Below are positions 14,618-46,050 of a stretch of 64,000 bases of DNA, piece after piece. The DNA comes from Candidatus Auribacterota bacterium. Lineage in GTDB: Bacteria; Auribacterota; Tritonobacteria; UBA1439. The translations under genes and the position numbers were made by a program. Below the pieces are notes generated by a model. That model did no database searches. It saw only the letters and a program-made list of their open reading frames with translations, and was not told the origin of the DNA. The stretch spans positions 1,335 to 65,334 of the forward strand of contig JAPLCX010000085.1 of assembly GCA_026392035.1 (NCBI GenBank). The letters are read 5' to 3'. The stretch's first letter is position 1. Each line of letters opens with the position of its first letter.

Positions 14618-14656
14618 GTCACACCCAATCCAAGAGGCACACCCTGAATACTAACT
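14618..14656. repeat. Decayed arm(s) of the RAYT-associated repeat
   Basis: GTCACACCC at 14618 and GCACACCCTGAATACTAACT at 14637-14656, matching the 46416/47508 inverted repeats. Confidence 0.75.
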
Positions 14657-14984: not shown

Positions 14985-15320
14985 TCACATTAGGTCTCCC
15001 AACGGCCCCAGGTTTATGTTGAGCTCCTCATCCTTGAGCCCAAAAATCCCTTTGAGCTCCTTTATCTTGTTCTCCAACTTCATCAGGGTCTCGCCAACCT
15101 GCTCAATCTGTTCGTCCGTCAGGCTGCCCCCTTCTATCCGCCGCAGCGCCTGTTTTTCAAGCAGCTTTCTGATCAATTCTACCAGCGTGAGCACCAGCTT
15201 CGCCAATCCCTTCTCCACGTTCTTTGGGTTCGCGTCAATTTTTTTGGGAAGGGCGTCCTGTATTTTATCAAGCTCGTTCATAAACAACTCAGGTGAATCA
15301 GTCTCGACTTTGCGCTTCAT
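14985..15320 (-). CDS. gvpK: Gas vesicle protein GvpK
   Basis: GLAKLVLTLVELIRKLLEKQALRR ... LNINLGPLG. Confidence 0.93.
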   Translation of the reverse strand: MKRKVETDSPELFMNELDKIQDALPKKIDANPKNVEKGLAKLVLTLVELIRKLLEKQALRRIEGGSLTDEQIEQVGETLMKLENKIKELKGIFGLKDEELNINLGPLGDLM

Positions 15321-15414
15321 GCAATACCTCACGTTAGCTTGCGCTAACTTAAATCCCAAATCCCAAAGTTATTGAAATTCCGAGGCTGCCAGTTAATCCC
15401 CCAGCCCAATTTTA

Positions 15415-16152
15415 TTAAAAGGGCGGATGAGGGGGGATTTTCACTCTCACAAAATTATACGGAGGCCAAGGGCCGCTGAATAAATATTTAAAATCACTGT
15501 GTTCTTTTTTAAAATGCTCAAACGCTTCCCGGAAATCTCCCGCCGCTCCTTTTTTTACAAGATAATTCGCGTCAAGAAGCAGATCGCAGCTTTTAAGCTT
15601 CTCCACCTTCTTTTCTGAAATGCAGTCTTTTAACACACTCTCCAGGGCAAGGATATGTTGTTCAGCTTCCTTTTCAAATGCCTTCTCTATTTCATGTTCC
15701 GCCAGCTTCTCCTTCATGTACCTTTTTGCCGGAGTGTCTCCCGACGCGCCTGACCCGGCCGTTGAACCCTTATGCGCGTGCGCGATGTTTTCTTTTATCA
15801 CTTCCCCCGGCCAGATAACCCTGACGCCGAATTCCACCTTGTCCCTGAGCCTGTTGATATTTTCCTTGAATTCACCGTAGTGTTTTTTAAGAATGCACAC
15901 AGCATCATCCCTTGTATTGAAGACCGTGTTGAATCTCATGGGCAGGACGACATAATTACCCATTTCTCTTTCCACCACCTCTTCGTGCCTGAGGACATCC
16001 GTTTTACCTGTATCCGTTATTCCCCTCCCTATTTCGCTCGAAATTAAACCGATATCGCGATGGGGAATATTATAGATAATCGCGCCATCCAGACCCTTTA
16101 TCCGGCCTTTGAGCTTATCACCGGAATCTATCACGCAATAGGTGTAGATCAC
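15415..16152 (-). CDS. GvpL/GvpF family protein
   Basis: YTYCVI, HEEVVE, VLPMRFNT, SGPWPPYNF; GTG start 16152. Confidence 0.9.
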   Translation of the reverse strand: MIYTYCVIDSGDKLKGRIKGLDGAIIYNIPHRDIGLISSEIGRGITDTGKTDVLRHEEVVEREMGNYVVLPMRFNTVFNTRDDAVCILKKHYGEFKENINRLRDKVEFGVRVIWPGEVIKENIAHAHKGSTAGSGASGDTPAKRYMKEKLAEHEIEKAFEKEAEQHILALESVLKDCISEKKVEKLKSCDLLLDANYLVKKGAAGDFREAFEHFKKEHSDFKYLFSGPWPPYNFVRVKIPPHPPF

Positions 16153-16155
16153 TTT

Positions 16156-16345
16156 AAATCCCAAATCCCAAACTCCAAATCCCAAATAAATCCCAAATCC
16201 CAAAATTTAATTGTCATTTGGCTTTTGTCATTCATCTGTCATTTGTCATTCTGCTGATTTGTCATTTGGCCTTTGTCATTCATTTGTCATTTGCCTGCCT
16301 GCCGGCAGGCAGGGATTTTTGTCATTTATTTGTCATTTGTCATTT
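16156..16345. repeat. AAATCCC heptamer array followed by TGTCATT array with a nested CCTGCCGGCAGG palindrome
   Basis: Visible 7-bp periodicity on both arms. Confidence 0.8.
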
Positions 16346-16346
16346 C

Positions 16347-16565
16347 CTATGTCGGCTCTTCCTGTCCCCCCGCAAACGGCGTCCCTCGCAGCTTCTCCAT
16401 GGTCTCGACCGAACTCAGCAACACCTTCAATCCCAGGTAAACAAGGTCCACATCAGCCACCGATATAACTATATCGCCGCTGATCACCACGCCCTTGTTC
16501 AACACCCGGTCGAGAACCTCGAGGAGCGTGACGTCCCTTGATTTTATTACGACTTTATCTACCAT
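16347..16565 (-). CDS. Minor GvpA-family protein (GvpJ/S/M-like)
   Basis: LLEVLDRVLNKGVVISGDIVISVADVDLVYLGLKVLLSSVET. Confidence 0.88.
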   Translation of the reverse strand: MVDKVVIKSRDVTLLEVLDRVLNKGVVISGDIVISVADVDLVYLGLKVLLSSVETMEKLRGTPFAGGQEEPT

Positions 16566-17379
16566 GCTGTTTCTCCGACAACGCGCAGAAGTTATACGGC
16601 GGCCATGGCCCGGTACAGTCAAATGAAAGACCGGAAGAAGAGAACCTATCTTTGAAATCATTTGTCGCATTGATAAAACCGCCCAGCTCATTCTTGTCCA
16701 CGAGGAAGGCGGCATTCAGGATCATATCATCGTTCCTCTCGGTAACTTCCCGCGGAAGCAGCTTGTTTATGCGCGCGCGCATGCTCAATGCGCACAGCCT
16801 GTCATACATCTCCTGACCATACTCGTTCAGCTTTTTATCAACCAGAACATCGAGCAACTCATCCCTTTTCTTTTTCAACAGAAAGCCCTTCCCAGCCGAG
16901 GAAGCGCCGATCTCTTTATCCATTTGCGCGACCTCTTTATCCTGTGTCCCGAGAAATGCCCGTAATTTACCGATATCGCAATAGAGCTTCAGCCCCCACT
17001 CCTCTTTTCCGTCGAGTTCGCTCAACAAATCCTTCAGTTCTTCCTCGTATTTCTCCAACCAGCCCCGGAGGTTCGCATCAGTTTTAAAAACAGTTCCCAA
17101 TTTGAACGGGACTACCGCGCCGGCTTCCATAACTCCCTCGATTACCTTGTTATGAATATTCGCCTTTACTTTGACCCACTCGAAATCAGAGAGATGCTTT
17201 TTCAGCCCCTCTTCTCCAAACTCCTCCCCTGTCACCGCGCTCACCACGGCGTAAAGACCGTGATGACACACCACGACCGGGGCCTTCGCGATCCCCGCCA
17301 CATGGCCTGGCGCAGGCTCCCTGTCGGTCACACAATACAGGTAGATAAGACCTTTCTCGCCACTTTCCGCATCGCTCAT
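16555..17379 (-). CDS. GvpL/GvpF family protein
   Basis: YLYCV, H..VI, VVPFKLGT, TGPWPPYNF. Confidence 0.9.
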   Translation of the reverse strand: MSDAESGEKGLIYLYCVTDREPAPGHVAGIAKAPVVVCHHGLYAVVSAVTGEEFGEEGLKKHLSDFEWVKVKANIHNKVIEGVMEAGAVVPFKLGTVFKTDANLRGWLEKYEEELKDLLSELDGKEEWGLKLYCDIGKLRAFLGTQDKEVAQMDKEIGASSAGKGFLLKKKRDELLDVLVDKKLNEYGQEMYDRLCALSMRARINKLLPREVTERNDDMILNAAFLVDKNELGGFINATNDFKDRFSSSGLSFDCTGPWPPYNFCALSEKQHGR

Positions 17380-17639
17380 TCGGATGACTCTTCCTCCTCT
17401 TTACGTCCGTACGACTGCACTTCCAGGTCGGCGCTGAGCTTGACCTTATAAATGTTCCTGTCCTGCACCTTGACCGGGAGCCCGATGGATTTCATAAAGG
17501 CGCTCTCCTCATACACCTCCGCCTCGGTCTCCCACCCGTCGCTCACCCGGGCAACCTTAATGACCTTGGCTTCTTTCGCGCTGAGCGCTTTCTTTAAAAA
17601 TTCGCTGACCGCTTTCCCCGCTTCCTGAATGGTTGCCAT
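17376..17639 (-). CDS. gvpO: Gas vesicle protein GvpO (copy 2)
   Basis: VIKVARVSDGWETEAEVYEE...YKVKL; paralogue of 27454-27711. Confidence 0.75.
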   Translation of the reverse strand: MATIQEAGKAVSEFLKKALSAKEAKVIKVARVSDGWETEAEVYEESAFMKSIGLPVKVQDRNIYKVKLSADLEVQSYGRKEEEESSE

Positions 17640-17663
17640 GACCGCACCTCCTCTCCATAAGGG

Positions 17664-17822
17664 AAATCCCAAATCCCAAACCCCAAATCCCAAAATTCAA
17701 ACCATTTGTCATTTTTTAGGACGTTGCCCCCTCCCCAAATCCCCCTCTGTCCCCCTTTTTCAAAGGGGGAGGAAATCCATCCCTCATTTCCCCCCTTTGT
17801 AAAGGGGGGTTGGGGGGGATTT
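17664..17822. repeat. Heptamer array plus CCCCCTTT..AAAGGGGG hairpins
   Basis: aaatcccaaatcccaaac..., then two hairpins of the G/C-tract type. Confidence 0.75.
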
Positions 17823-18045
17823 ACTTCCCTCTCGCCGCGTCCAATCGTTCCAGCAACTCCTTCTCCTGTCTGTTGTACTCCTCCTCATTTATCTCGTCCA
17901 GCTCGAACCTGAGCTGCAACTCCATCAGTTTCTCCTTTATCCTCCCCTCATCGGAGAACTCCTTCTGCGCGACCTCGTCGATCTTCCTCCCGAGCCAGAC
18001 AATCATCTTGAGAGGAGAGAGAAGTATATCGTCGATAAGGAACAT
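17821..18045 (-). CDS. gvpG: Gas vesicle protein GvpG
   Basis: DDILL.P...I.W....I...A..E..DE..I...L.ELQ...E..EI.EEEY...E.ELL.RL. Confidence 0.9.
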   Translation of the reverse strand: MFLIDDILLSPLKMIVWLGRKIDEVAQKEFSDEGRIKEKLMELQLRFELDEINEEEYNRQEKELLERLDAARGK

Positions 18046-18121
18046 ACCAAGACCACCTTGTTAATGACAAATGACAAATGCCAAAATCCAAATAAATGAC
18101 AAATGACAAAATCTAACTAGC

Positions 18122-18514
18122 TCAACCACTTTTTAGAGTCTTATTTATAATGCTGCTCAGGATAAGCAATAATTCTTCTGCCTCACCTAACTGCCAATCA
18201 AGTTCTCCTCTATCCTCCGGCTCCCTCACCAAATCCACCTTTTTTATCAAGCGCAGCCAGTGTCTTGACTCTCGCGCCTCCCTCCTGGCAATTCCCATTT
18301 TGTTCACAAAATCTTTCCTCGTAAGAGCTCCATCCGCTTCTTCCATATTCGCGCCGATCGAACCGCTTGCCCTGATTACCTGCTTCCCGTACTCTATCAA
18401 AGCCTGGCTTTTGTCCAACCTGCTTATCAGCCTCGCAACCCTCGCTGCAAACTCCAGGGCTCTATCATAAATGTCAAATTTTCTTCCTATTGTCATTTGT
18501 TTATCATTTGTCAT
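18122..18514 (-). CDS. Four-helix-bundle protein (TIGR02436/IVS-like) flanked by inverted heptamer arrays
   Basis: QVIRASGSIGANMEEA, F..K..IARREARES..WL; real start may be ATG 18496. Confidence 0.88.
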   Translation of the reverse strand: MTNDKQMTIGRKFDIYDRALEFAARVARLISRLDKSQALIEYGKQVIRASGSIGANMEEADGALTRKDFVNKMGIARREARESRHWLRLIKKVDLVREPEDRGELDWQLGEAEELLLILSSIINKTLKSG

Positions 18515-18576
18515 TCTAGTAGTTCGTCTCTTCCTGTGTCTCGACTCTTCTCCTGTTTGTCATTTGAAATTTGTCA

Positions 18577-19332
18577 TTAGTACTTGTCTGTCTTTATCAC
18601 CAGATTCACGAAATTGAACGGCGGGAGCGTGCCCACATATTTAAACTTAACAGCCTCGCCATATTTTTCCACAAGCCCTTCGACCGCCCTATCAAACTCC
18701 TCTTCGCGTTTTTCCTCAACCAGGAAGGCCGCATTCAGGATCATCCGCTCCCCATACGTGGCATTGGTCTTGGTCTCCAGCGCGACGGGTGTGAGAAATT
18801 CCATTATCTTCTCGCGATATGCCTCCCGCTCCTTCCCGAGCGCCTCCTCAACCATCCTGCCTATTTCCATGCGCTGATAATGGGTTTTATCCGCCGGCAG
18901 CGTCGCGATCTTCTCCTTGGTCCGCCGTATATGCTCATATTTTTCCAGAATGGACGGATAAATAAATTCTTCCTTGAACACCGCCTTGAGACCGAGCTCC
19001 TTTTTCCCCTCCATCTGCCGCAACATCTGCGCGAATCGGTCGTGCTCCTTCTCCAGTATCCTCCGCACCTTGTCCTCGCTCTCCGCGATGGTGCAGAACC
19101 TGACGGGCAGCACCGTGTGATGCTTCATTACCTCTTCGATCGCGCGCTCATGTGCGATCGTGTTTTCCCGCGATATCCTGTATTCCTTGACCGGGGAATT
19201 GCTGACCACGGCGGCGACGTCATTGACGCCGAAGCTCCGCACCTCATCCCCCCTGCCGCCGATCCCGACAGGGCCGAAGGCATCGGGCTCTCCAGCCGCG
19301 ATTATACAATAGATATACTTACCCTCTTTCAC
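18577..19332 (-). CDS. GvpL/GvpF family protein
   Basis: GKYIYCII, AHERAIE, VLPVRFCT, GTLPPFNF. Confidence 0.92.
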   Translation of the reverse strand: MKEGKYIYCIIAAGEPDAFGPVGIGGRGDEVRSFGVNDVAAVVSNSPVKEYRISRENTIAHERAIEEVMKHHTVLPVRFCTIAESEDKVRRILEKEHDRFAQMLRQMEGKKELGLKAVFKEEFIYPSILEKYEHIRRTKEKIATLPADKTHYQRMEIGRMVEEALGKEREAYREKIMEFLTPVALETKTNATYGERMILNAAFLVEEKREEEFDRAVEGLVEKYGEAVKFKYVGTLPPFNFVNLVIKTDKY

Positions 19333-19433
19333 CCCGCCCCCATTTATTTGTTATTTGTCATTCGGATTTTGTCATTTATTTGACATTTGCCCACCTGCCG
19401 GCAGGCAGGGATTTTGACATTTGTCATTGAATT

Positions 19434-20204
19434 CTATTTTTCCCATTCTTCCTGGTAGATGACGATATTCACAAAGTTGAACACCGGCAGCGGCCCGGCG
19501 TACATGAACGTCATTCTATCTTTGTATTTCCTGCCCAGGTCATCCATGATATTGTCAAATTCCTTCTCCCGCCCCTTGTCCACCAGGAAGGCGGCATTGA
19601 TGAACATCCTGTCGTCAGTGGTATTATTGAGCTTATGGTCGTAAGCAGTTCGCCGCAGCGCGTCCACCACCCTCTCCGCCTCCTGCCGCTTCTTTTTGGC
19701 CAGCGCCTGCTCAACCATCTTGCCCAGCTCGACCCGCTCCTCAATACCCCCATTGCCCTTCGATTTCCGCAGGGTCTCCTTGAGTTGCTTGATCTCCTTG
19801 TTCTTTTCGCCGATCTCCCGGTATATGACATCCATATCCTTCCACAGCCCCTTGACGCCAAGCTCGACCTTGTGATCCATATCCCTTAAGGCATGTTTGA
19901 ACTCCCTGTATCTTCTATCGAGCAGGTTGCGTATCTCATCGGCGTCCTCCGCGACGGTGCCGAAGCGCACCGGGAGCACGCCGTCGAACTCCTTCATCAC
20001 TTCCTCGATCACCTTCTCGTGCGCGAGCATATTGTCGCGATTGACCACAAACCGCGTCATGGGATGATTGCTCACCACCATGCTGAGGTTCTCATAGCCG
20101 ATCGTGAGAATCTCGTCGCCTCTCCCGCCTATGCCGATAGCTCCGAAATTTCTCTCCTGCTTTGTCCCGATGATGCAATAGATGTATTTGCCTTCTTTTT
20201 CCAT
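19434..20204 (-). CDS. GvpL/GvpF family protein
   Basis: GKYIYCII, AHEKVIE, VLPVRFGT, GPLPVFNF. Confidence 0.92.
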   Translation of the reverse strand: MEKEGKYIYCIIGTKQERNFGAIGIGGRGDEILTIGYENLSMVVSNHPMTRFVVNRDNMLAHEKVIEEVMKEFDGVLPVRFGTVAEDADEIRNLLDRRYREFKHALRDMDHKVELGVKGLWKDMDVIYREIGEKNKEIKQLKETLRKSKGNGGIEERVELGKMVEQALAKKKRQEAERVVDALRRTAYDHKLNNTTDDRMFINAAFLVDKGREKEFDNIMDDLGRKYKDRMTFMYAGPLPVFNFVNIVIYQEEWEK

Positions 20205-20205: not shown

Positions 20206-21249
20206 TCACTCCCTCAGTCTGACGAGGATCGCGCTTCTCCGTATATCGCTCGCCTTAAATGACAGGTTCTCACTGTCCCCTCCCTGCTCCGACGCCCGGG
20301 CGTACTCTTCGAGAATCTTCCACGCTCTGGTGAGATCATCAAACACCTTCTCCATATCGGTTCCGTCAGGATTAGTGTCCGGATGCGATGAGAACGCTAA
20401 TTTCTGACGAATCTTCTTGATATCCGCCCGTGTGGCCGTGTCGCCCAGACTAAAAATCCGCCTCGCCCAATTGACCTCGTCGCTCCCCAGTTTTTTCACC
20501 TCAAGCGTGAAGAAACTGTACGGGGGGAGCGGTCCGATGCGCCGAAAATTCAGCTTCTCCTCAAACCGGGCATTGAGCTTATCCACCTTCGCATCGAATA
20601 TCTCTCGATTCTCACGCGAGACGAGGAACGCGCTGTTCATCACCATCGTGTCATCCATGAGCTCGTGGTCCCTGAACCCACAGCTCACCGCTGTAAGCTC
20701 ATGGTGAATAGCCGCCGCGCACGCTTTTCTCTGTTCATCCAGCGCCTTTTTAACAATAAGCCCTACCGTCATCTGATCCTGGGGAGTCACCCCGTTTGAA
20801 CTCGCGAGGACCTTTGCCTTGATATCCTGAACCTCTTTCCTCCCCCCGGTCTCTTTAAGCAACGCGTTAAAATCACTCCAGGTCACCGCGACGTCAATCT
20901 CCACCTTATCGGCGATTTTCTTAAATACCTCCCGCGCCAACTCATACCCCCGGGCGAGAACATCCTGCGCTTCGCTCATGCTCTCCGCATAGGTCCCCAC
21001 TCTCATCGGGATAACCGCGAATCGCCGCATCACGCTCTCGAGCACCTGCTGATGATGTATTAGTCGCCGCGCGACTTCGTCTTTTATCAGCGCGTTGTAG
21101 TCGTACAGCTCGGAGTTGCTCACCACCGCAGCGATATCCATATGGGGGATGGTGTACACCTGTTCCCCTCCTTCAATCCCGGGCTGCTCGAAGTAAAGCT
21201 CCTTATCAGATTCAATAATCCCATAGATATATTTGCCCTCCCGCTTCAT
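20206..21249 (-). CDS. GvpL/GvpF protein fused to a C-terminal J-domain
   Basis: GvpF core ending GPLPPYSF, then IKK..QKLAFSSHPDTNP...F..L..AW.IL with an intact HPD. Confidence 0.85.
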   Translation of the reverse strand: MKREGKYIYGIIESDKELYFEQPGIEGGEQVYTIPHMDIAAVVSNSELYDYNALIKDEVARRLIHHQQVLESVMRRFAVIPMRVGTYAESMSEAQDVLARGYELAREVFKKIADKVEIDVAVTWSDFNALLKETGGRKEVQDIKAKVLASSNGVTPQDQMTVGLIVKKALDEQRKACAAAIHHELTAVSCGFRDHELMDDTMVMNSAFLVSRENREIFDAKVDKLNARFEEKLNFRRIGPLPPYSFFTLEVKKLGSDEVNWARRIFSLGDTATRADIKKIRQKLAFSSHPDTNPDGTDMEKVFDDLTRAWKILEEYARASEQGGDSENLSFKASDIRRSAILVRLRE

Positions 21250-21260: not shown

Positions 21261-23423
21261 TCAAGCCTTGTGGCCGGCCGGCGACCGCGAATTCCGCGCG
21301 CTCTCGACCAACTTCATCGCTTCTTCGAAATGCCTCTTCTCAATGGTGGGCGAGTCCTTCCCCTTCGGTTTTCGTTCGATAAACTCCCGTATGGCAATCA
21401 TCGCCGCCTTGCGGCATATAAGCTCGATATCAGACCCCGACTTGCCCCCGGTGTCCCTGGCCAGCTTCCTTATATCAATGTCCGGGGCGAGGGGTTTGTT
21501 TTTGACATGGATCTTGAATATCTTTCCCCGCGCCGCTTCGTCGGGGATCGGCAGCTCGAGGAGCAGATCAAATCTGCCGCTCCTGAGCAGCGCCGGGTCA
21601 ACAAGGTCCAGCCTGTTGGTCGCCCCCAGCACCAGCACGCCCTTGAGCTCCTCTATCCCGTCCATTTCCGTCAGAAACTGGCTTATCACCCGCTCCGTCA
21701 CATGGGCGTCAGTGGAACTCGACCCCCGGAGGGGCACAATGCTGTCGATCTCGTCAAAGAAAAGGATGGTGGGAGACGCCTGTTTCGCCTTCTTGAAGAT
21801 CTCCCGGATGCCCCGCTCGCTCTCCCCGACGTATTTTGATATGAGGGAGGGCCCTTTCACCGAGATGAAGTTCACGCCGCTCTCGTTTGCCACCGCCTTC
21901 GCGAGGAGGGTTTTCCCCGTCCCCGGGGCTCCGTACAGGAGGATTCCCTTCGGAGGCGAGGTGTTTGTCTTTTTAAATATCTCCGAGTACTTCAACGGCC
22001 ACTCAACCGCCTCTTTCAACTCCTCCTTGATAGTATCCAACCCGCCCACATCCTCCCATGTGACATCCGGCACCTCCACGAACACCTCTCGTATGGCCGA
22101 TGGTTCGACCTCCTTCATCGCTTCCAGGAAATCATCCATCGTCACCTCGAGCTTCATGAGCGTCTCGTAGGGGATATCGGCCATTTCAAAGTCTATCTTC
22201 GGGAGGATCTTCCGCAACGCCGACATCGCCGCTTCCCGCGCAAGCGCCTCGAGATCGGCGCCCACGAAACCGTGGGTGATCCCCGCGAGTTTCTCCACGC
22301 TCACGTCCTGCGCCAGGGGCATGCCCCTCGTGTGGATATGAAGTATCTCAAGCCTGCCGTTTTTGTCCGGGATGGGAATGGCTATCTCCCGGTCGAAGCG
22401 CCCCGGCCGCCGCAGCGCCGGATCCACTATATTGGGGACGTTGGTCGCGGCCATGACGACCACATGCCCCCGTGACTCCAATCCGTCCATGAGCGCCAGG
22501 AGCTGGGCCACCACCCGTCGCTCAACCTGTTTCTCAGCCCCCATATCTTCTCTCTTGGGAGCGATTGATTCGATCTCATCAATGAATATGATTGCGGGGG
22601 CATGCGCCTTGGCCTCCTCAAAGAGGGACCGGATGCGCCCTTCCGATTCCCCGTAAAATTTTCCCATGCACTCAGGCCCGCTCATGCTGGTAAAGTACGC
22701 GTCCGTCTCGTGCGCCACCGCGCGCGCGATCAATGTCTTGCCGCACCCCGGCGGCCCGTGGAGGAACACGCCCTTGGGGGCGTCGATGCCGAGCCGCTCG
22801 AATACCTCGGGATAGCGCAGCGGCAGCTCCACCATCTCCCTGATGCGCTGGACCTGCGTGCCGAGACCGCCGATATCCTCGTACGAGACCTTCGCGGGCC
22901 CCTTCTCCGGCGCCTCCTTGGTCTTGATCCGTATCATCGTGGCGGTGCTCAACACCACCACGCCATCGGGACTCGTGTCGAGCACCTTGAAATCGCACGA
23001 TCTCGTGCCGAAGAGCACCGCCCGTATCCGGTCGCCCACCATCACCGGAAGCCCGTCAATGAGCGACCCGATATACTTGCTGTCCTTCTCCCGGTCCGCC
23101 AGGCCCGACATGGTCAACGGGGAAAGCGTCACGCTCCGCGCGGGTTTCGATTCCACCTTATGTATCTTTACCCGGTCATCGAGCCCCACCTGCGCGTTCT
23201 CGCGTAAGATCCCGTCCATCTGAATGATCTTCATGCCGCGATCCGGGGCGTAACAGGGCATCGCCTTTGCCGGCGTCTTCCGTTTCCCTTCAACCTCGAT
23301 GATCTCCCCCACTTCAACGCCGAGCTTCTTCATGTCATCGGGATCTATTCTCGCGATAGACCTCCCGACATCCTTGGATAAAGCCTCTTTCACTTTTAGC
23401 ATCACATAACCTCCGTCATTCAC
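21261..23423 (-). CDS. CDC48/p97/VAT-family AAA+ ATPase
   Basis: Double-psi N domain; D1 [22 protein letters not shown]; D2 [18 protein letters not shown]. Confidence 0.93.
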
Positions 23424-23649: not shown

Positions 23650-24588
23650 CTACGCGCCAAACAGCAAATGCCTGAAATTATCCAACGACTCGATTCCCCT
23701 CACCTCCACGGGCTGCAACGGCACCAGGGTAATCTCAAATGCGCCGAACTTTTCCTTTATCATTTTGATGTATCTTTCCTGCCCCTTCCTCCGCTCCCTG
23801 CAGAAATCGCAGTCGCTCGACCTCACCACATTATTGACCACCATCTGTCTTACGTTGATTCCCGCCACGCGCAGGCTGTTCACCAGCCGTTCCGTTTCCG
23901 CGATCGCCATCTCCTCCGGAATGGTCACCACGATGAATTGGCAGCCTTGACCATCGCGGAGCAAACCCTCGATCCGCTTTACCACCTTCTTCATTTCGAC
24001 GAGGAACTCATCTGCCCTGTCAGGCTTCGCCCGCCCCGAAAAGGCTTCAACCACTCGATGATACTTCCACCGCATCTTCGCGACCACCTTGATCCAGTCA
24101 TCGAGAATGCCGGGCAGCGTCAACAACCTCAAGGCGTGTCCGGTGGGCGCGGTGTCAACGATATACTTGTCGAATTTCCCCTCCTCCACAAGGTCGAGGA
24201 TCGTTTTGAACCCCATCACCTCGTCTATACCCGGAATAGAGAGCGCGAACACGGAATCTATGTCGGCCTTGTCAAGATAGGTCGAGCTGTCGAGAATCCA
24301 TCGTATCTCATCCCCGTACTCCGCCTTGAACCGGCAGAGCGCCTTGTCCGCGCTTACTTCAATCGCGCTCAGGTTCTGAACACCGTCAATCCCGGTTACG
24401 GCATCCCCGATGCTCTGGCCGAAACAGTCGGAAAGGGAATGGGCGGGATCGGTGGAAATAAGCAATGTCTTGTATTGCCCGGCCAAATAAAAACCTGTGC
24501 TGGATGCACAGGTCGTTTTTCCCACCCCGCCCTTTCCGCCGAATAAAATCAGCTTTAGCGCGTCATTATTTAATCCTGTGAGTGGCAT
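23650..24588 (-). CDS. ArsA/GET3-family ATPase
   Basis: GKGGVGKTT, STDPAHSL, DTAPTGH. Confidence 0.93.
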   Translation of the reverse strand: MPLTGLNNDALKLILFGGKGGVGKTTCASSTGFYLAGQYKTLLISTDPAHSLSDCFGQSIGDAVTGIDGVQNLSAIEVSADKALCRFKAEYGDEIRWILDSSTYLDKADIDSVFALSIPGIDEVMGFKTILDLVEEGKFDKYIVDTAPTGHALRLLTLPGILDDWIKVVAKMRWKYHRVVEAFSGRAKPDRADEFLVEMKKVVKRIEGLLRDGQGCQFIVVTIPEEMAIAETERLVNSLRVAGINVRQMVVNNVVRSSDCDFCRERRKGQERYIKMIKEKFGAFEITLVPLQPVEVRGIESLDNFRHLLFGA

Positions 24589-25955: not shown

Positions 25956-25980
25956 AACCATCCGTCTGTTTCCAGCCTCA

Positions 25981-26058
25981 GGGTCACACCCTGAATACTA
26001 ACTATGAATGCTCGTCCAAAACCTGCTATGGTCTAAGTCAGTATTCAGGGTGTGACCC
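25981..26058. mobile_element. 78-bp REPIN/MITE-like element, copy 1
   Basis: 23-bp inverted arms (GGGTCACACCCTGAATACTAACT, 1 mismatch in the right arm) around a 32-bp spacer. Confidence 0.85.
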
Positions 26059-26071
26059 CGAATGTGATCAT

Positions 26072-26650
26072 TTAATCCTGTGAGTGGCATTTCATCACTT
26101 TGATTTCCAGCATGCCGTTATTGTATTTTGAGCGAAGCGTATCCGCTTTAACCTTTGCCGGAAGCAGGATCTCCTTGCGGTATTTCCTTTCGCCTGATTT
26201 GGCTGAAATATCCAGGATATCCCCTTTCAAATCAACCTTGATATCCTTTTCATTCACCCCCGGCATTTCGGCATACACCCGGATCTCTTCCTTCTCGTCA
26301 AACACGTCGGTGATCGGTTCGCGTTCCTCCTCGACCCTCGGCCCCTGGGGAGTTTTTTTGATCTTGTGGCCAAACGGCTCAACAGAGACCGGCCTGCCTC
26401 CGAGCGCGGTTTTTACAGAGAAACCAAAAACCCCCTTCATCCCTTCCTTCAGATGACTCAGGTCTATCTCGCCCTCTTTTTTGATTTCGCCGCCTGATTC
26501 TTTCAGGGCTTCCGCCAGGTCCACCAATTTCTCAAGCCCTTTGAACAACCCCCCCAGGCTGAATTGCCCCATACCGATGTCAAAATCCGCCCCTTCCTTT
26601 TTTCCGCCATGGGCGGCTCCGCCTCCGGCGGGCTTCTTCCCCTTTATCAT
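26072..26650 (-). CDS. Hsp20/alpha-crystallin protein (GvpH-like), copy 2
   Basis: Nearly identical to 24570-25118 apart from the N-terminus. Confidence 0.88.
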   Translation of the reverse strand: MIKGKKPAGGGAAHGGKKEGADFDIGMGQFSLGGLFKGLEKLVDLAEALKESGGEIKKEGEIDLSHLKEGMKGVFGFSVKTALGGRPVSVEPFGHKIKKTPQGPRVEEEREPITDVFDEKEEIRVYAEMPGVNEKDIKVDLKGDILDISAKSGERKYRKEILLPAKVKADTLRSKYNNGMLEIKVMKCHSQD

Positions 26651-26675
26651 GGCTCTCTCCTCCTCTCTGGCCTCA

Positions 26676-26753
26676 GGGTCACACCCTGAATACTAACTAC
26701 GAATGCTCATCCAAAACCTGTTATGATCTAAGTTAGTATTTAGGGTGTGACCC
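26676..26753. mobile_element. 78-bp REPIN/MITE-like element, copy 2
   Basis: Same arms; spacer differs from copy 1 at 4 of 32 positions. Confidence 0.85.
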
Positions 26754-26756
26754 CAC

Positions 26757-27728: not shown

Positions 27729-28106
27729 TTATCCTGCAACTACGCCTATCCCCCTGCATTTTGAACAGGGAAGACCGCATCCTTTCTCCCGGCCTCTTCC
27801 TTTGCAGGAAAGGCATACCTCAACCTTCTTGGTATGCACGTTTACAACGCCTTTTCCACGGCAGACAATACAGGCAAGGTCGGGATTCAGATGCGATTTC
27901 CCCGTACCATTACAATAAGCGCATATCACCGCAGGCGGTTGAATATTTATAGTCCCGACGCCTGAACAAACAAAACAGCTTGTGCTTTTCTTGGAAGGCA
28001 TAAACCCTCTTCCGCCACAAAATCCACATCTATAGACGTGTTTACTTAGGACTTCTCCTCTCCTGCCTGCCTTTTGACTTTTGAAATCAAAGGTTTTCCA
28101 CATCAT
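27729..28106 (-). CDS. Stand-alone DnaJ-type zinc-finger protein
   Basis: Six CxxCxGxG repeats. Confidence 0.85.
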   Translation of the reverse strand: MMWKTFDFKSQKAGRRGEVLSKHVYRCGFCGGRGFMPSKKSTSCFVCSGVGTINIQPPAVICAYCNGTGKSHLNPDLACIVCRGKGVVNVHTKKVEVCLSCKGRGREKGCGLPCSKCRGIGVVAG

Positions 28107-28138: not shown

Positions 28139-28453
28139 TTAATATTTTAGATGCATGGTCTTCCAGTCTTTGGATGGAGGCTTTTTGAATCCCCCGGGAT
28201 CTGCCTGGCTTCTTCTAGGTTCCGCTTCTTCTAGTTTTTTCATTTCCGCGTTAATCTCATCAATCCTTTTTTGCATACTCTTTTTTCTTTTATCTAAAAT
28301 ATAAGTTTCCTTTTCCAGCCTATCCTTCTCTTTTTTCAACATATATAAATCGAGATAGGTAGAGCTTTGCACTCTGGGGATTGATCTCTTTTTGGCGCTA
28401 TGCAGAGTCCTTACCTCTCTCAAACCGCTTAATTCCGTAACTCCTCTGACCAT
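28139..28453 (-). CDS. Hypothetical coiled-coil protein
   Basis: Heptad-like LYMLKKEKDRLEKE...IDEI; operon position and RBS. Confidence 0.65.
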   Translation of the reverse strand: MVRGVTELSGLREVRTLHSAKKRSIPRVQSSTYLDLYMLKKEKDRLEKETYILDKRKKSMQKRIDEINAEMKKLEEAEPRRSQADPGGFKKPPSKDWKTMHLKY

Positions 28454-28696: not shown

Positions 28697-29668
28697 CTAT
28701 ACTACAGAGGTTTCTTTCTCGGATTTCTGTCCAATCTTCTCTGCGCTCCTGGCCTTGCCAAGTTCCTTTTCCACAAGATCTCTGACTACTTCTTTCACCC
28801 TGGCTTGATTCGTCCTTGAGCCAACCCGGCTTGTCTCAGATGCCAGGATATCCTGACACATCTTCAGGAACCCATCTGAGTTGGAAGGAGTCATATTCTG
28901 GACTTTAAGCGTTTTTGCAATCATAATACAGCCGCGGATGGTTGGAGCGAATTCGCACTTTCCCGATTCCCTCAAGCCCCTGACAATATTAACTACCTTC
29001 TCGGCATGGTGTTTTGAGAGCTTGGATTTCGCCTGGGTTATTGCCAGCTCTGTCTCATAGTCAAAGTGCTCCAGGTCCATGGTAATCATTCTATCCCTTA
29101 GCGCATCCTGACTCCTGTGTACCCCGGCATATTCCTCAGGGTTGGAGGTAAAAACAGCGGTAAAATCAGGATCAACCCTTAAATATGGTTCTTCTCCACC
29201 TCTTCCCACCGGCAAATCCATCATCTTCTCCTGAAGGATGGAGAGGAGAATATTATTAGCTTCCGGGCGCGACCGGGTGAATTCGTCATAGATCAGCGTA
29301 AATCCGTACTTACAGGCAACGGTCAGCCGGTTATCCACCCATCTCTTTATCATATCCTCTTCTACCTTCAAAACCCTGGATACAAAGCGGTCAACCACCT
29401 TTCTGATTCGATAGCCATACTCGCCACCGACTAAATCAGAGGTGGTAAACTCTTCATCTCCATGAATCATCACCACCGGCCGTCCTATTTTACTCGCGAT
29501 ATGCATAGCCAACGTTGTCTTGCCGGTGCCGGATACCCCCCTGAAGTGAACCGGAAAGCCGGCCTTAATATAGGAAAGGCTCCTATCGGTAACATCCTTG
29601 ATATACTTGGTTTCCACAAAGTCCGGCAGAGGACTTGGCTCCAATACTGTGGTCATCTCATCAACCAT
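28697..29668 (-). CDS. gvpN: Gas vesicle AAA+ ATPase GvpN
   Basis: HFRGVSGTGKTTLA, YDEFTRS.PEANN.LL, TSNPEEYAGVH..QDAL.DR. Confidence 0.96.
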   Translation of the reverse strand: MVDEMTTVLEPSPLPDFVETKYIKDVTDRSLSYIKAGFPVHFRGVSGTGKTTLAMHIASKIGRPVVMIHGDEEFTTSDLVGGEYGYRIRKVVDRFVSRVLKVEEDMIKRWVDNRLTVACKYGFTLIYDEFTRSRPEANNILLSILQEKMMDLPVGRGGEEPYLRVDPDFTAVFTSNPEEYAGVHRSQDALRDRMITMDLEHFDYETELAITQAKSKLSKHHAEKVVNIVRGLRESGKCEFAPTIRGCIMIAKTLKVQNMTPSNSDGFLKMCQDILASETSRVGSRTNQARVKEVVRDLVEKELGKARSAEKIGQKSEKETSVV

Positions 29669-29674: not shown

Positions 29675-30073
29675 TCACCCCTTTTCTGTTTGTCTGCCTG
29701 CCCGCCGAAGCCCTGGCGCAGGCAGGGAATTCGATTTCTTGCTTCTTAGAGTCTCATTCATTTTGTTCCAGGTTCTGCTTGCTTCAGCCAAATCTGCTTT
29801 TATTTCCTGCTCTTTCTTCTTAAAGTCTTTCCTCAGGGCATTGACATTTTTGATTAGCTCATCTCTCTTCCTTTGTAAATATGCTTTTTGCTCTTTAGCC
29901 ATTTCCTGATGAAACTTCCTGGAATCAGCTAAAAACTTCCTGGCATTATCTTGAACAGCGGCAGCTTGTTTCTTCAGCTCTCTGATGCCGCTCTTTCTAT
30001 CTTCGTGACCTGTTATAATATTTTCACAGATAGATTTCATGTCGCCTGATACATTCCCATGGACCAGCCTCAT
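29675..30073 (-). CDS. Helical GvpC-like protein (short paralogue)
   Basis: Related N-terminal I.E.II...E.R...I.EL motif and amphipathic helix; ATGA overlap with the upstream stop. Confidence 0.5.
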   Translation of the reverse strand: MRLVHGNVSGDMKSICENIITGHEDRKSGIRELKKQAAAVQDNARKFLADSRKFHQEMAKEQKAYLQRKRDELIKNVNALRKDFKKKEQEIKADLAEASRTWNKMNETLRSKKSNSLPAPGLRRAGRQTEKG

Positions 30074-30390
30074 TTGCGAACAACCCCTTTGCCCCCGCAT
30101 TTGATACAAGGTAACCCACTATCTATCTCTGCGCCAGTACCTTTACATTTAGGGCACTCTTCGGCAGCGCCTTTAACTGTGACCATACCTTTGCCATCAC
30201 ATACAGTGCAGGTAACCCGGGCATTATGAGGATAGACACCGGTTGCGTTACAAAAAGCGCATTTAATCGCCGGCTCCACAACCTCAACCTTACCTGTGCC
30301 TCCGCATACCTGACAGGTGGCAAGCTCGGATAGCAGATTAAACGGGTCTATACCTTTTCCTTTACAAAAAGCGCATCTTATTTTGCCCAA
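30070..30390 (-). CDS. Stand-alone DnaJ-type zinc-finger protein
   Basis: Six CxxCxGxG-type repeats. Confidence 0.85.
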   Translation of the reverse strand: MGKIRCAFCKGKGIDPFNLLSELATCQVCGGTGKVEVVEPAIKCAFCNATGVYPHNARVTCTVCDGKGMVTVKGAAEECPKCKGTGAEIDSGLPCIKCGGKGVVRK

Positions 30391-34163: not shown

Positions 34164-34315
34164 AACTCCCTCCTTACTTTGTCTTTTCCTCTCTCCCCCT
34201 GCAAACAACCATCCGCGAGTGATACGAGTCTAGAAATCACCTATCTATATAAACCCCGGGAGGGTGATTTTTCTCTCTCCCGCTCCTCCCCCCGAGAGTA
34301 AATTACATTATGCAC

Positions 34316-35212: not shown

Positions 35213-35419
35213 TTACGCCGCTGACGCGGTAAGGCCGATCGCCTCGGCATACTTCAGGTACGTCTCGACTGATGCAACCACGACCCTGGCTTCAACAGCG
35301 AGCAGCTCAATACCCACCAACGACACTCTCACCCAGGCATCAACCACGATGCCCTTATCCAGTATCCGGTCGATAACCTCAACCAGGCTGGATGAACCGA
35401 TCGTTTTCTCTACTGCCAT
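35213..35419 (-). CDS. gvpA: Major gas vesicle protein GvpA (copy 2)
   Basis: [55 protein letters not shown]. Confidence 0.98.
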
Positions 35420-35523
35420 GTTAATTCACCTCCTTCCCTTATTGGATTTTTGCTGCAAACTCCTCGATGCCACTCACTCAAATCCCCCCTGCCCCCCTTT
35501 TCTAAAGGGGGAAAGAGGGGGAT

Positions 35524-35730
35524 TTACGCTGCCGACGCGGTCAGGCCGATTGCTTCGGCATACTTCAGGTACGTCTCGACTGATGCCGCCACGATTCTGG
35601 CTTCAACAGCGAGCAGCTCAATACCCACCAACGACACTCTCACCCAGGCATCAACCACGATGCCCTTGTCCAGTATCCGGTCGATAACCTCAACCAGGCT
35701 GGACGATCCGATCGTCTTTTCCACTGCCAT
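35524..35730 (-). CDS. gvpA: Major gas vesicle protein GvpA (copy 1)
   Basis: Same as copy 2 except I46/A48; GGAGGTGA RBS before ATG 35730. Confidence 0.98.
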
Positions 35731-35814
35731 TTGACTCACCTCCCTTCACTTAGTATTCCGCTTTGGACTGAGGAGCGGTCAACCCCGATTTTATACTCTT
35801 GATTCAATAGCGCG

Positions 35815-36028: not shown

Positions 36029-36044
36029 AGCAATAATCATGCCA
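36029..36044 (-). promoter_or_regulatory. sigma54 (-24/-12) promoter of the gvp operon
   Basis: Minus strand TGGCATGATTATTGCT. Confidence 0.75.
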
Positions 36045-36965: not shown

Positions 36966-37074
36966 CAGCGCCTCCCGGGCCCCCTACCATAAATGATTCA
37001 TTACCTGTTTCCTTCAAGCGATAAAATATATTTTTCATATGGAGCCAGGTTATTGTATAATTGTATCAGAATTT

Positions 37075-37101
37075 GAAGCGATTAGACTGTTTAATCGCTT
37101 C
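37075..37101 (+). promoter_or_regulatory. Operator-like 10-bp inverted repeat downstream of TATAAT (37056) before the Fic gene
   Basis: GAAGCGATTA-N7-TAATCGCTTC. Confidence 0.5.
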
Positions 37102-37114
37102 TGGAGGGATATAG

Positions 37115-45769: not shown

Positions 45770-46050
45770 TCACTGCAGTGCTTCACTTTTGAAGTCTGTA
45801 TACTCACCACCCCTTTGCCGAGGCATACGAGACAAGTGATATTCGAGCCAGGCGGTGATTGCCCGCTCCCTTTGCAATATACGCACTTGATCGCCGGCGC
45901 TTCTGTCATGACAACTCCTCTCCCCCTGCAAATATAGCACCGGACATTTTTTCTCCCCCTGATGACACCGATACCCCCACAAAAACCACAATTAAACATT
46001 GATCTCTTATAAATCCGCACCTTCTTCATTTGGGGTCGGGTAAGCTCCAT
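45691..46050 (-). CDS. Stand-alone DnaJ-type zinc-finger protein (third paralogue)
   Basis: Six CxxCxGxG repeats. Confidence 0.82.
   Translation of the reverse strand: MELTRPQMKKVRIYKRSMFNCGFCGGIGVIRGRKNVRCYICRGRGVVMTEAPAIKCVYCKGSGQSPPGSNITCLVCLGKGVVSIQTSKVKHCSDCGGRGRARGRVLPCLRCKGKGVVRA

What the first reader, a model, noticed from the sequence alone, without database searches (positions are those of the whole stretch)
20206..21249. A DnaJ split into parts: J-domain fused to GvpF, zinc fingers as free six-repeat proteins
Seen: GvpF with a C-terminal HPD J-domain, and three stand-alone proteins (27729, 30070, 45691) each with six CxxCxGxG repeats. Known: class A DnaJ has a J-domain plus four such repeats; HPD stimulates Hsp70; GvpF binds GvpA. 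Inference: Hsp70 is recruited directly to nascent GvpA, with the free fingers as substrate holdases, i.e. a vesicle-specific co-chaperone system.
Basis: partly seen in the sequence, partly recalled or inferred. Interest (0 to 1): 0.8.

Follow-up and report, generated by a model that had tools for sequence, protein, structure and literature searches.

The report
Gas-vesicle GvpF fused to J-domain
One gas-vesicle assembly protein (GvpF) here carries a conserved Hsp70-recruiting J-domain and sits in a widespread gas-vesicle gene cluster with its own chaperone set, including small six-repeat zinc-finger proteins, so many uncultured bacteria probably connect gas-vesicle assembly to the cell's Hsp70 system, a link I found in no searchable paper.

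Summary
Gene 20206-21249 (minus strand, 347 aa) is a GvpF/GvpL domain followed by a real J-domain with an HPD motif. Three paralogous small basic proteins (27729, 30070, 45691) each carry six DnaJ-type CxxCxGxG repeats.

None of this is peculiar to this genome:
- All 120 best homologues carry both domains and HPD.
- All 78 genome loci that cover the region keep HPD.
- The J-domain is as conserved as the GvpF domain.
- The gene lies in a syntenic gvp cluster found in MAGs labelled with about 15 phyla: gvpA, coiled-coil genes, (ZnF), gvpN, (ZnF), Hsp20, ArsA-like, Cdc48-like, GvpF-J, more GvpF/L, G, O, J, K.
- The zinc-finger proteins occur only inside such clusters (49 of 49 ORFs; 6 of 6 reverse look-ups), but only 26 of 36 complete clusters have one.
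- No Hsp70 gene lies in the window or in 82 related loci.

Best reading: GvpF-J is a class-C J-domain adaptor. It brings the housekeeping DnaK to a Gvp client, within a dedicated chaperone module.

It works as an analogy, not as shown ancestry, and all biochemistry is untested. I found no paper describing the fusion. I rate it a new variant of a known kind, of moderately high interest.

The parts
20206..21249 (-). GvpF-J gene (347 aa): an N-terminal GvpF/GvpL domain, a C-terminal J-domain and a conserved tail
   Evidence: Pfam PF06386 E 2.6e-56 and PF00226 31.4 bits. AF2 model pLDDT 91, pTM 0.84. Foldseek matches GvpF 6l5d_B (E 5e-16, TM 0.84) and J-domains such as 5nro_B (rmsd 2.0 A over 57 columns). 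P0001 is 100% identical at 347 aa.
20284..20484 (-). J-domain (residues 261-327 of the 352-aa frame): helix I, helix II, the HPD loop and a long helix III. No canonical helix IV is predicted.
   Evidence: Secondary structure. PDB sequence hits are all J-domains. 31% identity to E. coli DnaJ residues 9-57. The family consensus EIKKAYq..AfS.HPDkNP....EkEFdevtkAYkiL is close to the canonical J-domain consensus.
20377..20385 (-). HPD tripeptide codons
   Evidence: Translation. Invariant in 120/120 homologues, in alignments A1 and A2, and in 78/78 genome loci that cover the region.
20209..20283 (-). Conserved C-terminal tail after the J-domain (...EQxGQ..SF..EEFKKNAILVKVRE): predicted strand, short helix, strand
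   Evidence: Consensus. Mean pairwise identity 0.51. AF2 secondary-structure elements E333-335, H338-343, E346-351. J-domain plus tail is found almost only at the C-terminus of proteins of about 340-380 aa.
27729..28106 (-). Zinc-finger protein ZnF-A (125 aa, pI 9.6): six CxxCxGxG repeats and a conserved N-terminal MxWKTFDWKSQ motif
   Evidence: PF00684 35.0 bits. All 12 repeat cysteines are invariant or nearly so in alignment A3. AF2 pLDDT 84. Lies between cc_28139 and the gvpO-like gene or Hsp20 in 16/36 clusters.
30070..30390 (-). Zinc-finger protein ZnF-B (106 aa, pI 8.8): six repeats, the third being CAFCNATG
   Evidence: PF00684 47.5 bits. Repeats 3-6 align collinearly with E. coli DnaJ residues 144-200. 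Lies upstream of gvpN in 23/36 clusters.
45691..46050 (-). Zinc-finger protein ZnF-C (119 aa, pI 10.3): six repeats, a paralogue of ZnF-A (42-43% identity)
   Evidence: PF00684 41.2 bits. Paralogy shown. Lies beside a truncated copy of the cluster's conserved last gene (46026-46412) and upstream of the conserved kinase, response-regulator and sigma-54-activator genes.
21261..23423 (-). Cdc48-like double AAA+ ATPase, directly upstream of GvpF-J
   Evidence: Pfam CDC48_N, CDC48_2 and two AAA domains. Present in 35/36 clusters.
23650..24588 (-). ArsA/Get3-like ATPase
   Evidence: PF02374 E 3e-79. Present in 33/36 clusters. The association of ArsA homologues with gvp genes was noted in PMC2963123.
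24570..25118 (-). Hsp20 (small heat-shock protein), copy a
   Evidence: PF00011 and PF17886. Hsp20 is present in 35/36 clusters.
26072..26650 (-). Hsp20, copy b: a recent duplicate bracketed by 85-nt hairpin elements
   Evidence: 300-nt repeat at 97% identity and the flanking elements.
28697..29668 (-). gvpN (AAA+)
   Evidence: TIGR02640, 331 bits against a cut-off of 266.8.
14985..20204 (-). Downstream half of the cluster: GvpF/L paralogues 19434-20204, 18577-19332, 16555-17379 and 15415-16203; gvpG 17821-18045; gvpO-like 17376-17693; gvpJ-like 16347-16715; gvpK 14985-15359. A 23S-IVP-family gene is inserted at 18122-18514.
   Evidence: Pfam. Synteny conserved across 80 loci.
35213..35739 (-). 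Two tandem gvpA genes (68 and 71 aa), the head of the cluster
   Evidence: ORFs. A gvpA gene heads the cluster in related loci.

Best explanation
GvpF-J is a specialised class-C J-domain protein of a widespread gas-vesicle cluster type.

Shown here: its N-terminal domain has the GvpF fold. Its C-terminal domain is a J-domain whose HPD motif and the residues that contact DnaK in canonical J-domains are conserved as strongly as the GvpF part. The gene sits at a fixed position after Hsp20, an ArsA/Get3-like ATPase and a Cdc48-like AAA+. The cluster carries no Hsp70 gene of its own.

Inferred: the GvpF domain binds a hydrophobic shell-family client (GvpA, or a GvpJ/M-type relative), as GvpF does in Halobacterium and Priestia (Bacillus) megaterium. 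The J-domain then triggers ATP hydrolysis in the housekeeping DnaK, which clamps the client or the complex. This would either keep unassembled GvpA soluble or drive its release and hand-over (for example to GvpG) at the growing shell. The closest working analogies are HscB delivering IscU to HscA, and auxilin bringing Hsc70 to clathrin.

The six-repeat zinc-finger proteins are cluster-specific accessory factors. They are most likely zinc-dependent holdases or assembly chaperones of the DnaJ cysteine-rich-domain / BSD2 kind. This is inferred from family resemblance and gene linkage only. They are optional, not the missing half of one DnaJ.
For: - Domain calls and predicted structure.
- HPD is invariant in 120/120 homologues and 78/78 loci.
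- Family-consensus positions equivalent to E. coli DnaJ R22/K23, Y25, K26/R27, R36, N37, F47, A53, Y54 and L57 are conserved. Mapping them to DnaK contacts rests on my knowledge of the DnaK-J-domain structure 5NRO.
- Mean pairwise identity is 0.58 for the J-domain and 0.61 for the GvpF domain.
- Synteny is conserved in MAGs carrying about 15 phylum labels; Hsp20 35/36, ArsA 33/36, Cdc48 35/36.
- No DnaK homologue in the window or in 82 loci totalling 1.14 Mb.
- Literature: GvpF binds monomeric GvpA and is proposed to be its chaperone (PMC9501494). In P. megaterium GvpF is the primary, transient binder of GvpA2 and is displaced by GvpG (PMC11445434).
- The zinc-finger proteins are found only in these clusters. 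All 12 cysteines are conserved. PF00684 is passed. Repeats 3-6 are collinear with the DnaJ cysteine-rich domain.
Against: - No biochemistry: DnaK stimulation, GvpA binding and zinc binding are all untested.
- The window's own J-domain is a divergent member (31.4 bits). Helix II reads IKKIRQK rather than IKKAYQR, Thr replaces Lys/Arg after HPD, and Trp replaces Tyr54.
- GvpF-J is only about 30% identical to the two neighbouring GvpF-like paralogues. All three match cyanobacterial GvpF about equally, so the client could be another Gvp protein.
- AF2 gives a high pTM (0.84). The J-domain may therefore be packed against the GvpF domain, but I could not inspect the coordinates to see whether HPD is exposed.
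- 10/36 clusters have no zinc-finger gene.
- The zinc-finger model has no significant global structural match.
- All carriers are uncultured MAGs or single-cell genomes. Gas vesicles have not been observed in them, as far as I could find.
Confidence: 0.6

Rival explanations
1. Disassembly or quality control rather than assembly. GvpF-J targets DnaK to misassembled GvpA aggregates or to collapsed or broken vesicles, whose hydrophobic gas-facing side becomes exposed. There it works with Hsp20 and the Cdc48-like unfoldase as a dedicated disaggregase that recycles shell protein.
For: Hsp20, a J-domain and a double-ring AAA+ unfoldase are the parts list of a disaggregation system, and they are adjacent and conserved (35/36). 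[quoted passage not shown] That surface is exposed only in free GvpA or in damaged vesicles.
Against: The genes lie in the middle of the biogenesis cluster, on the same strand as gvpA/N/F/G/J/K. No adaptor linking DnaK to Cdc48-type ATPases is known (my knowledge). Nothing here separates assembly from recycling.
Confidence: 0.2
2. A true split class-A DnaJ. The J-domain on GvpF and the free zinc fingers derive from one DnaJ gene and work together as an obligate two-part co-chaperone.
For: Both modules are DnaJ-type and co-occur in 26/36 clusters. Repeats 3-6 of the 30070 protein are collinear with the DnaJ cysteine-rich domain.
Against: 10/36 clusters keep GvpF-J without any finger. The fingers have six repeats, not four. 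There is no G/F region and there are no DnaJ C-terminal domains anywhere in the cluster. No fused J-plus-finger or GvpF-J-plus-finger protein appeared among the hits. The J-domain's best PDB matches show no particular affinity to bacterial DnaJ.
Confidence: 0.1
3. The J-domain is a structural remnant. It serves as a packing or oligomerisation module of this GvpF paralogue and does not signal to Hsp70. The zinc fingers are structural or regulatory vesicle proteins, for example surface binders or Anti-TRAP-like protein inhibitors.
For: The high pTM suggests the J-domain is docked on the GvpF domain. Canonical helix IV is replaced by a family-specific tail. Anti-TRAP is a precedent for a DnaJ-type finger acting as a regulator, and the Anti-TRAP models give hits around or below their cut-offs. 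The fingers are basic and lie near AbrB-like and winged-helix-like genes.
Against: HPD has no known structural role, yet it is invariant in about 200 sequences with pairwise identity down to about 40%. Flanking positions equivalent to DnaK-contact residues of DnaJ are conserved too.
Confidence: 0.1

Closest known systems
Class C (type III) J-domain proteins with a client-specific domain, e.g. HscB (delivers IscU to HscA), auxilin (brings Hsc70 to clathrin), Mycoplasma TopJ (terminal-organelle assembly)
   Same: A J-domain with HPD is joined to a dedicated binding domain. There is no G/F region and no zinc-finger domain in the same chain. The presumed job is to aim a general Hsp70 at one assembly. 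TopJ's NCBIfam model even gives a weak J-domain hit.
   Different: The partner domain is GvpF/GvpL, which I found described as a J-domain partner in no paper. The J-domain is C-terminal, lacks a canonical helix IV and is followed by a family-specific tail. Function is untested.
GvpF / GvpL gas-vesicle assembly proteins (crystal structures 4QSG of Microcystis, 6L5D of Anabaena)
   Same: Pfam family and fold of residues 10-252. Location in a gvp cluster next to further GvpF/L paralogues and gvpG.
   Different: It carries about 95 extra C-terminal residues (J-domain plus tail). It shares only 20-22% identity with the crystallised GvpFs and about 30% with its own neighbouring paralogues.
gvp clusters with an ArsA homologue, Hsp20 and four or five GvpL/F paralogues (Pelodictyon luteolum, Polaribacter irgensii, Geobacter uraniireducens; Castillo & Saier 2010, PMC2963123)
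   Same: The same unusual accessory genes (ArsA-like ATPase, Hsp20) and multiple L/F paralogues.
   Different: That paper mentions no J-domain, zinc-finger or Cdc48-like gene. It describes the gvp-linked ArsA homologues as two-domain proteins of about 600 aa, whereas this one is a single-domain protein of 312 aa. I could not check whether those cultured species carry the fusion.
Stand-alone DnaJ-type zinc-finger proteins: plant BSD2 (Rubisco assembly chaperone), Bacillus Anti-TRAP, and the cysteine-rich domain of DnaJ itself
   Same: CxxCxGxG repeats, PF00684 passed, no J-domain, small size. The best local structural matches are Anti-TRAP (rmsd 1.0-1.3 A over 30 columns), BSD2 and the DnaJ cysteine-rich domain. 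BSD2 is a precedent for such a protein acting as an assembly chaperone for one oligomeric product.
   Different: Six repeats, predicting three zinc sites, against four in DnaJ and BSD2 and two in Anti-TRAP. No significant global fold match. Found only in gvp clusters. One type has a conserved N-terminal Trp/Phe-rich motif.

Membership tests
J-domain protein (Hsp40 superfamily) | Match to the J-domain profile above the curated threshold | tested here: met
   PF00226 31.4 bits against a gathering score of 27.8. All 120 best homologues carry PF00226. PDB sequence hits are all J-domains.
J-domain protein (Hsp40 superfamily) | HPD tripeptide in the loop between helices II and III | tested here: met
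   Codons 20377-20385. The loop lies between predicted H279-293 and H304-327. Invariant in 120/120 homologues and 78/78 loci.
J-domain protein (Hsp40 superfamily) | Helical-hairpin J fold | tested here: met
   AF2 pLDDT 91. Foldseek probability 1.00 to J-domains, including 5nro_B (rmsd 2.0 A, target TM 0.78) and 6iws. Canonical helix IV is not predicted.
J-domain protein (Hsp40 superfamily) | Stimulates the ATPase of an Hsp70 partner | not testable with these tools
   Needs an ATPase assay. No Hsp70 gene lies in the window or in 82 loci, so the partner would be the housekeeping DnaK.
Class A (type I) DnaJ | N-terminal J-domain followed by a Gly/Phe-rich region | tested here: not met
   The J-domain is C-terminal, at residues 261-327 of 352, and is followed by a 25-residue tail with no G/F region.
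Class A (type I) DnaJ | Four CxxCxGxG repeats in the same chain, inserted in C-terminal domain I, plus C-terminal domain II and a dimerisation domain | tested here: not met
   No PF00684 or DnaJ_C hit in GvpF-J. The fingers are separate proteins of 106-125 aa with six repeats and no DnaJ_C hit. A tblastn search with E. coli DnaJ gives one hit in the window, in the 30070 finger gene; that search does not pick up the divergent J-domain.
GvpF/GvpL family | Profile match and GvpF fold | tested here: met
   PF06386 E 2.6e-56. Foldseek 6l5d_B E 5e-16, target TM 0.84, and 4qsg. It falls far below NCBIfam's equivalog cut-offs for GvpF and GvpL, so it is a distinct subfamily.
GvpF/GvpL family | Encoded in a gvp cluster with gvpA, N, G, J and K | tested here: met
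   Synteny is conserved in 80 loci.
GvpF/GvpL family | Binds GvpA or another Gvp protein | not testable with these tools
   Known for haloarchaeal and P. megaterium GvpF (PMC9501494, PMC11445434). Not known for this paralogue.
DnaJ-type zinc-finger (cysteine-rich) domain proteins | Repeated CxxCxGxG motifs matching PF00684 above threshold | tested here: met
   35.0, 47.5 and 41.2 bits against 32.7. 17 of 18 repeats are perfect. All 12 cysteines are conserved in alignment A3.
DnaJ-type zinc-finger (cysteine-rich) domain proteins | Zinc-knuckle fold like the DnaJ cysteine-rich domain, BSD2 or Anti-TRAP | tested here: inconclusive
   AF2 pLDDT 84, but Foldseek finds only local or non-significant matches (best E 0.17; Anti-TRAP rmsd 1.3 A over 30 columns). 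Which repeats pair up could not be determined.
DnaJ-type zinc-finger (cysteine-rich) domain proteins | Binds zinc, and has holdase or disulfide-isomerase activity | not testable with these tools
   Needs metal analysis and aggregation assays.

The most novel reading that the evidence does not exclude
A horizontally spread gas-vesicle cluster carries its own proteostasis kit: a small heat-shock protein, a Get3/ArsA-like ATPase, a Cdc48-like unfoldase, a GvpF-borne J-domain and three-zinc finger proteins. In this kit GvpF-J is the adaptor that couples Hsp70's ATP cycle to the delivery or release of the very hydrophobic shell protein. That would make gas-vesicle assembly in these bacteria an Hsp70-driven process. 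It would also be natural evidence that GvpF is a chaperone adaptor.
Probability: 0.4. Interest if true: 0.75.

Novelty: new variant of a known kind. Interest (0 to 1): 0.62.

Why it matters
How the very hydrophobic shell protein GvpA is kept soluble and inserted into a growing gas vesicle is an open question. GvpF has been proposed as its chaperone only from interaction data (PMC9501494, PMC11445434). A GvpF paralogue that has kept a J-domain with an intact HPD motif, in genomes labelled with about 15 phyla, is independent evolutionary support for that proposal. It also names a testable energy source, Hsp70.

It further shows that a common but unstudied cluster type in uncultured, mostly aquatic and groundwater lineages (Omnitrophota, Planctomycetota, Nitrospirota, Elusimicrobiota and others) carries a full chaperone set.

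There is a practical side. Heterologous gas-vesicle expression causes proteotoxic stress (PMC12848028). These accessory genes, or simply the DnaK/J balance, are therefore candidates for improving engineered acoustic reporter systems.

Tried and rejected
- Dedicated Hsp70. I looked for one in the window and in 82 related loci by tblastn with E. coli DnaK and found none. A self-contained Hsp70 system is therefore rejected.
- Curated models. NCBIfam has no specific model for the fusion, the fingers or the conserved unknown genes.
- Literature. Seven full-text searches found no relevant paper linking gas vesicles with a J-domain, DnaJ/DnaK or Cdc48. Their only relevant yield was the ArsA/Hsp20 paper PMC2963123, found.
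- Zinc-finger fold. Foldseek of the finger model gave no significant global match. I could not read model coordinates, so zinc-site pairing and HPD exposure stay undetermined.
- Sigma-54 promoters. The motif count is not above chance (6 found, 4 expected). Only the site upstream of gvpA is suggestive by position.
- Gene start. I considered the 352-aa TTG start of the mechanical ORF list and rejected it for the ATG at 21249, which matches the homologues' N-termini and has a ribosome-binding site.
- Third finger. I considered that the gene at 45691 is unlinked to gvp. It is not: it lies beside a copy of the cluster's conserved terminal gene and the conserved regulatory genes, inside a gvp island broken up by mobile elements.
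- Unused searches.
Full report
**What is at the coordinates**

The finding's coordinates, 20206-21249 on the minus strand, are exactly one gene of 347 codons. Its ATG lies 11 nt after the stop of the preceding gene and follows a GAGGAA ribosome-binding site. The mechanical ORF list starts five codons earlier, at a TTG. Homologues begin at the ATG. Residue numbers below use the 352-residue frame of the tool outputs.

Pfam finds GvpL_GvpF at residues 10-252 (E 2.6e-56) and the DnaJ J-domain at 272-320, with 31.4 bits against a gathering score of 27.8. The HPD codons are at 20377-20385.

One of the 18 repeats reads CAFCNATG. All three pass the gathering score of PF00684, the DnaJ central domain. 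They are basic paralogues, 40-45% identical to each other.

**The J-domain is real and under selection**

- Against PDB sequences, the C-terminal 96 residues hit only J-domains: CSP, DNAJB8, Tid1 and E. coli DnaJ, including the chain bound to DnaK in 5NRO.
- It aligns without gaps to E. coli DnaJ residues 9-57 at 31% identity.
- An AlphaFold2 model built on 113 homologues is confident (pLDDT 91, pTM 0.84).
- Foldseek matches the N-terminal part to the GvpF crystal structures (6L5D, E 5e-16, TM 0.84; 4QSG). It matches the C-terminal part to J-domains at probability 1.00 (5NRO_B, rmsd 2.0 A over 57 columns).
- All 120 best database homologues (43-88% identical) carry both Pfam domains, and all 120 have HPD.
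- H, P and D are among the 17 invariant columns of the 113-sequence alignment.
- All 78 genome loci that cover the region have HPD.

The family consensus around the motif is EIKKAYq..AfS.HPDkNPd.pgiEkEFdevtkAYkiL. It keeps the positions equivalent to E. coli DnaJ R22/K23, Y25, K26/R27, R36, N37, F47, A53, Y54 and L57. That these positions face DnaK rests on my knowledge of the 5NRO complex.

Mean pairwise identity is 0.58 in the J-domain and 0.61 in the GvpF domain, so the two parts are equally constrained.

The window's own copy is a somewhat divergent member (IKKIRQK...HPDT...AW), which explains its modest Pfam score.

No canonical helix IV is predicted. Instead, a long helix III leads into a conserved 25-residue tail of strand, short helix and strand. 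A search of 1.84 billion representative proteins with J-domain plus tail returned mostly proteins of about 340-380 aa matched at their C-terminus. This J-plus-tail unit is therefore seen almost only fused to GvpF.

**The context is a conserved, widely spread cluster type**

The window from about 14.9 to 35.7 kb, all on the minus strand, is a gas-vesicle cluster. In gene order it holds:
- two tandem gvpA genes (35213-35739);
- coiled-coil genes;
- the 30070 finger;
- gvpN (TIGR02640, 331 bits);
- a small AbrB-like gene;
- a conserved 104-aa coiled-coil gene;
- the 27729 finger;
- a gvpO-like gene;
- a gvpA/J-like gene;
- two Hsp20 genes;
- an ArsA/Get3-like ATPase;
- a Cdc48-like double AAA+ ATPase;
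- GvpF-J;
- four more GvpF/L paralogues, gvpG, gvpO-like, gvpJ-like and gvpK.

A scan of one genome per species found 267 stretches that encode a relative. The best 80 loci come from MAGs or single-cell genomes labelled Omnitrophota, Planctomycetota, Nitrospirota, Nitrospinota, Elusimicrobia, Ignavibacteria, Latescibacteria, Desantisbacteria, Aminicenantes, Cloacimonetes, Atribacterota, Kiritimatiellaeota, Sumerlaeota and others. The closest, at 81% identity, is labelled Chlamydiota. Bin labels may be imprecise.

BLAST of the window's proteins against the six-frame ORFs of these loci shows nearly the same gene order everywhere. Among the 36 loci that cover the stretch from the first coiled-coil gene to GvpF-J, the counts are:
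- gvpN 36/36;
- the 104-aa coiled-coil gene 36/36;
- Hsp20 35/36;
- Cdc48-like 35/36;
- ArsA-like 33/36.

Hsp20, ArsA homologues and multiple L/F paralogues in gvp clusters of cultured bacteria were noted in 2010 (PMC2963123). That paper mentions no J-domain, finger or Cdc48-like gene.

**The zinc-finger proteins belong to the cluster but are optional**

- ORFs with four or more repeats occur 49 times in the 80 loci. All are on the cluster strand, inside the cluster or at its contig-cut edge. None occur in 263 kb of flanking sequence.
- They sit at two fixed positions, before gvpN (the 30070 type) and before Hsp20 (the 27729 type).
- Of the 36 complete clusters, 13 have both types, 10 only the first, 3 only the second and 10 neither.
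- Starting from the finger instead, six of six homologues on long enough contigs lie next to gvp-cluster genes.
- The third finger (45691) lies 15 kb from the main cluster. It is adjacent to a truncated copy of the family that normally ends the cluster (46026-46412; full copy at 47488-48126). It is also upstream of the kinase, response-regulator and sigma-54-activator genes that accompany gvp clusters elsewhere.
- The island is broken up by an IS element, an IS200-like transposase with its short hairpin derivatives, and toxin-like genes.

All 12 repeat cysteines are invariant or nearly so. Repeats 3-6 of the 30070 protein align collinearly with the four repeats of E. coli DnaJ, residues 144-200. 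The AlphaFold2 model is confident apart from a disordered N-terminus (pLDDT 84). It has no significant global match in the PDB. The best local matches are Anti-TRAP, BSD2 and the DnaJ cysteine-rich domain. Six repeats predict three zinc sites. I could not determine which repeats pair.

**How it most likely works**

The following is shown:
- a GvpF fold joined to a J-domain with its Hsp70-signalling motif strictly conserved;
- a fixed place in a cluster next to three other chaperone-type genes;
- no Hsp70 gene in the window or in 1.14 Mb of related loci.

The rest is inferred. The housekeeping DnaK would be the partner. The GvpF domain would supply the client, probably GvpA or a GvpJ/M-type relative. 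Haloarchaeal GvpF binds monomeric GvpA and is thought to chaperone it (PMC9501494). In P. megaterium, GvpF is the primary, transient binder of GvpA2 and is displaced by GvpG (PMC11445434).

This arrangement is that of a class-C J-domain protein such as HscB or auxilin. Hsp70's ATP cycle could either hold the client or drive its release and hand-over.

A serious rival uses the same parts. It reads the module as a disaggregase that recycles misassembled or collapsed shell protein together with Hsp20 and the Cdc48-like ATPase.

The fingers are most simply read as zinc-dependent holdases or assembly chaperones, like BSD2 for Rubisco. That reading rests on family resemblance and linkage alone.

Recruitment of Hsp70 by a GvpF paralogue is well supported. 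"A DnaJ split into parts" is not shown:
- there is no G/F region and there are no DnaJ C-terminal domains;
- the fingers have six repeats, not four;
- no fused intermediates appeared among the hits;
- a quarter of the clusters have no finger.

GvpF-J is one of three GvpF-like paralogues that match cyanobacterial GvpF about equally. The client is therefore not established.

**Novelty**

Databases label these proteins "GvpL/GvpF family" or "J domain-containing". Seven full-text searches found no paper describing a J-domain, DnaJ-type fingers or a Cdc48-like ATPase as parts of gas-vesicle clusters.

I rate it a new variant of known kinds: a class-C J-protein with a new client domain, a gvp cluster type with an extended chaperone set, and a three-zinc-site member of the stand-alone DnaJ-finger proteins. 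Interest is moderately high for gas-vesicle and chaperone specialists, because it makes the "GvpF is a chaperone" idea directly testable.

Noticed in passing
window 46416-47508; 25975-26059; 26670-26754; 14634-14655: A 22-nt end sequence (GGGTCACACCCTGAATACTAAC) occurs 7 times against 0 expected. It brackets the IS200-like Y1 transposase gene (46433-47449) in inverted orientation. It also forms two 85-nt hairpin elements that flank the duplicated Hsp20 gene. This looks like a transposase with its non-autonomous derivatives spreading inside the gvp island.
   Followed up: partly
window 21261-23423: A Cdc48/VAT-like double AAA+ ATPase with a CDC48 N-domain lies directly upstream of GvpF-J in 35/36 related clusters. 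I found no paper linking such an ATPase to gas vesicles.
   Followed up: partly
window 47488-48126 and 46026-46412: A family of about 212 aa with unknown function (only a weak TraB/PrgY/GumN hit) is the conserved last gene of the cluster in most related loci. Here it lies 30 kb away, with a truncated second copy next to the third zinc-finger gene.
   Followed up: partly
window 36030-36044 (-), 39099-40505, 41818-42429, 42469-45769: TGGCAT-N5-TTGC lies about 290 nt upstream of gvpA. A sigma-54 activator, a response regulator with a GYF-like N-terminus (a call made from the matching gene in L082) and PAS histidine kinases lie nearby, as they do next to gvp clusters in L082 and L087. This suggests sigma-54 control. 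The motif count in the window is not above chance.
   Followed up: partly
window 28139-28453, 30859-31443, 33423-34208, 34431-35114: Several coiled-coil proteins with no family assignment are conserved parts of the cluster; the 104-aa one is present in 36/36. The 30859 and 33423 products are paralogues with apolipoprotein- or phasin-like weak hits, and could be the outer scaffold that stands in for GvpC.
   Followed up: no
window 27729-28106 (N-terminus of the product): The 27729-type finger proteins share a conserved N-terminal motif, MxWKTFDWKSQ..G..GEIL, which AlphaFold2 leaves disordered. It may be a docking peptide.
   Followed up: no
window 32410-33198 (+), 36663-38236, 40991-41350, 18122-18514: A DDE transposase, an AbiEii fragment, a Fic-domain protein, a DUF4258 toxin-like gene and a 23S-rRNA-IVP-family gene are inserted within the gvp island. 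An IVP-family gene also sits inside the cluster of L081, at a different position.
   Followed up: no
proteins P0169 (679 aa) and P0253 (964 aa): Two representative proteins each match the J-domain query in six separate stretches, which would make them multi-J-domain proteins. They are unrelated to the gvp context.
   Followed up: no
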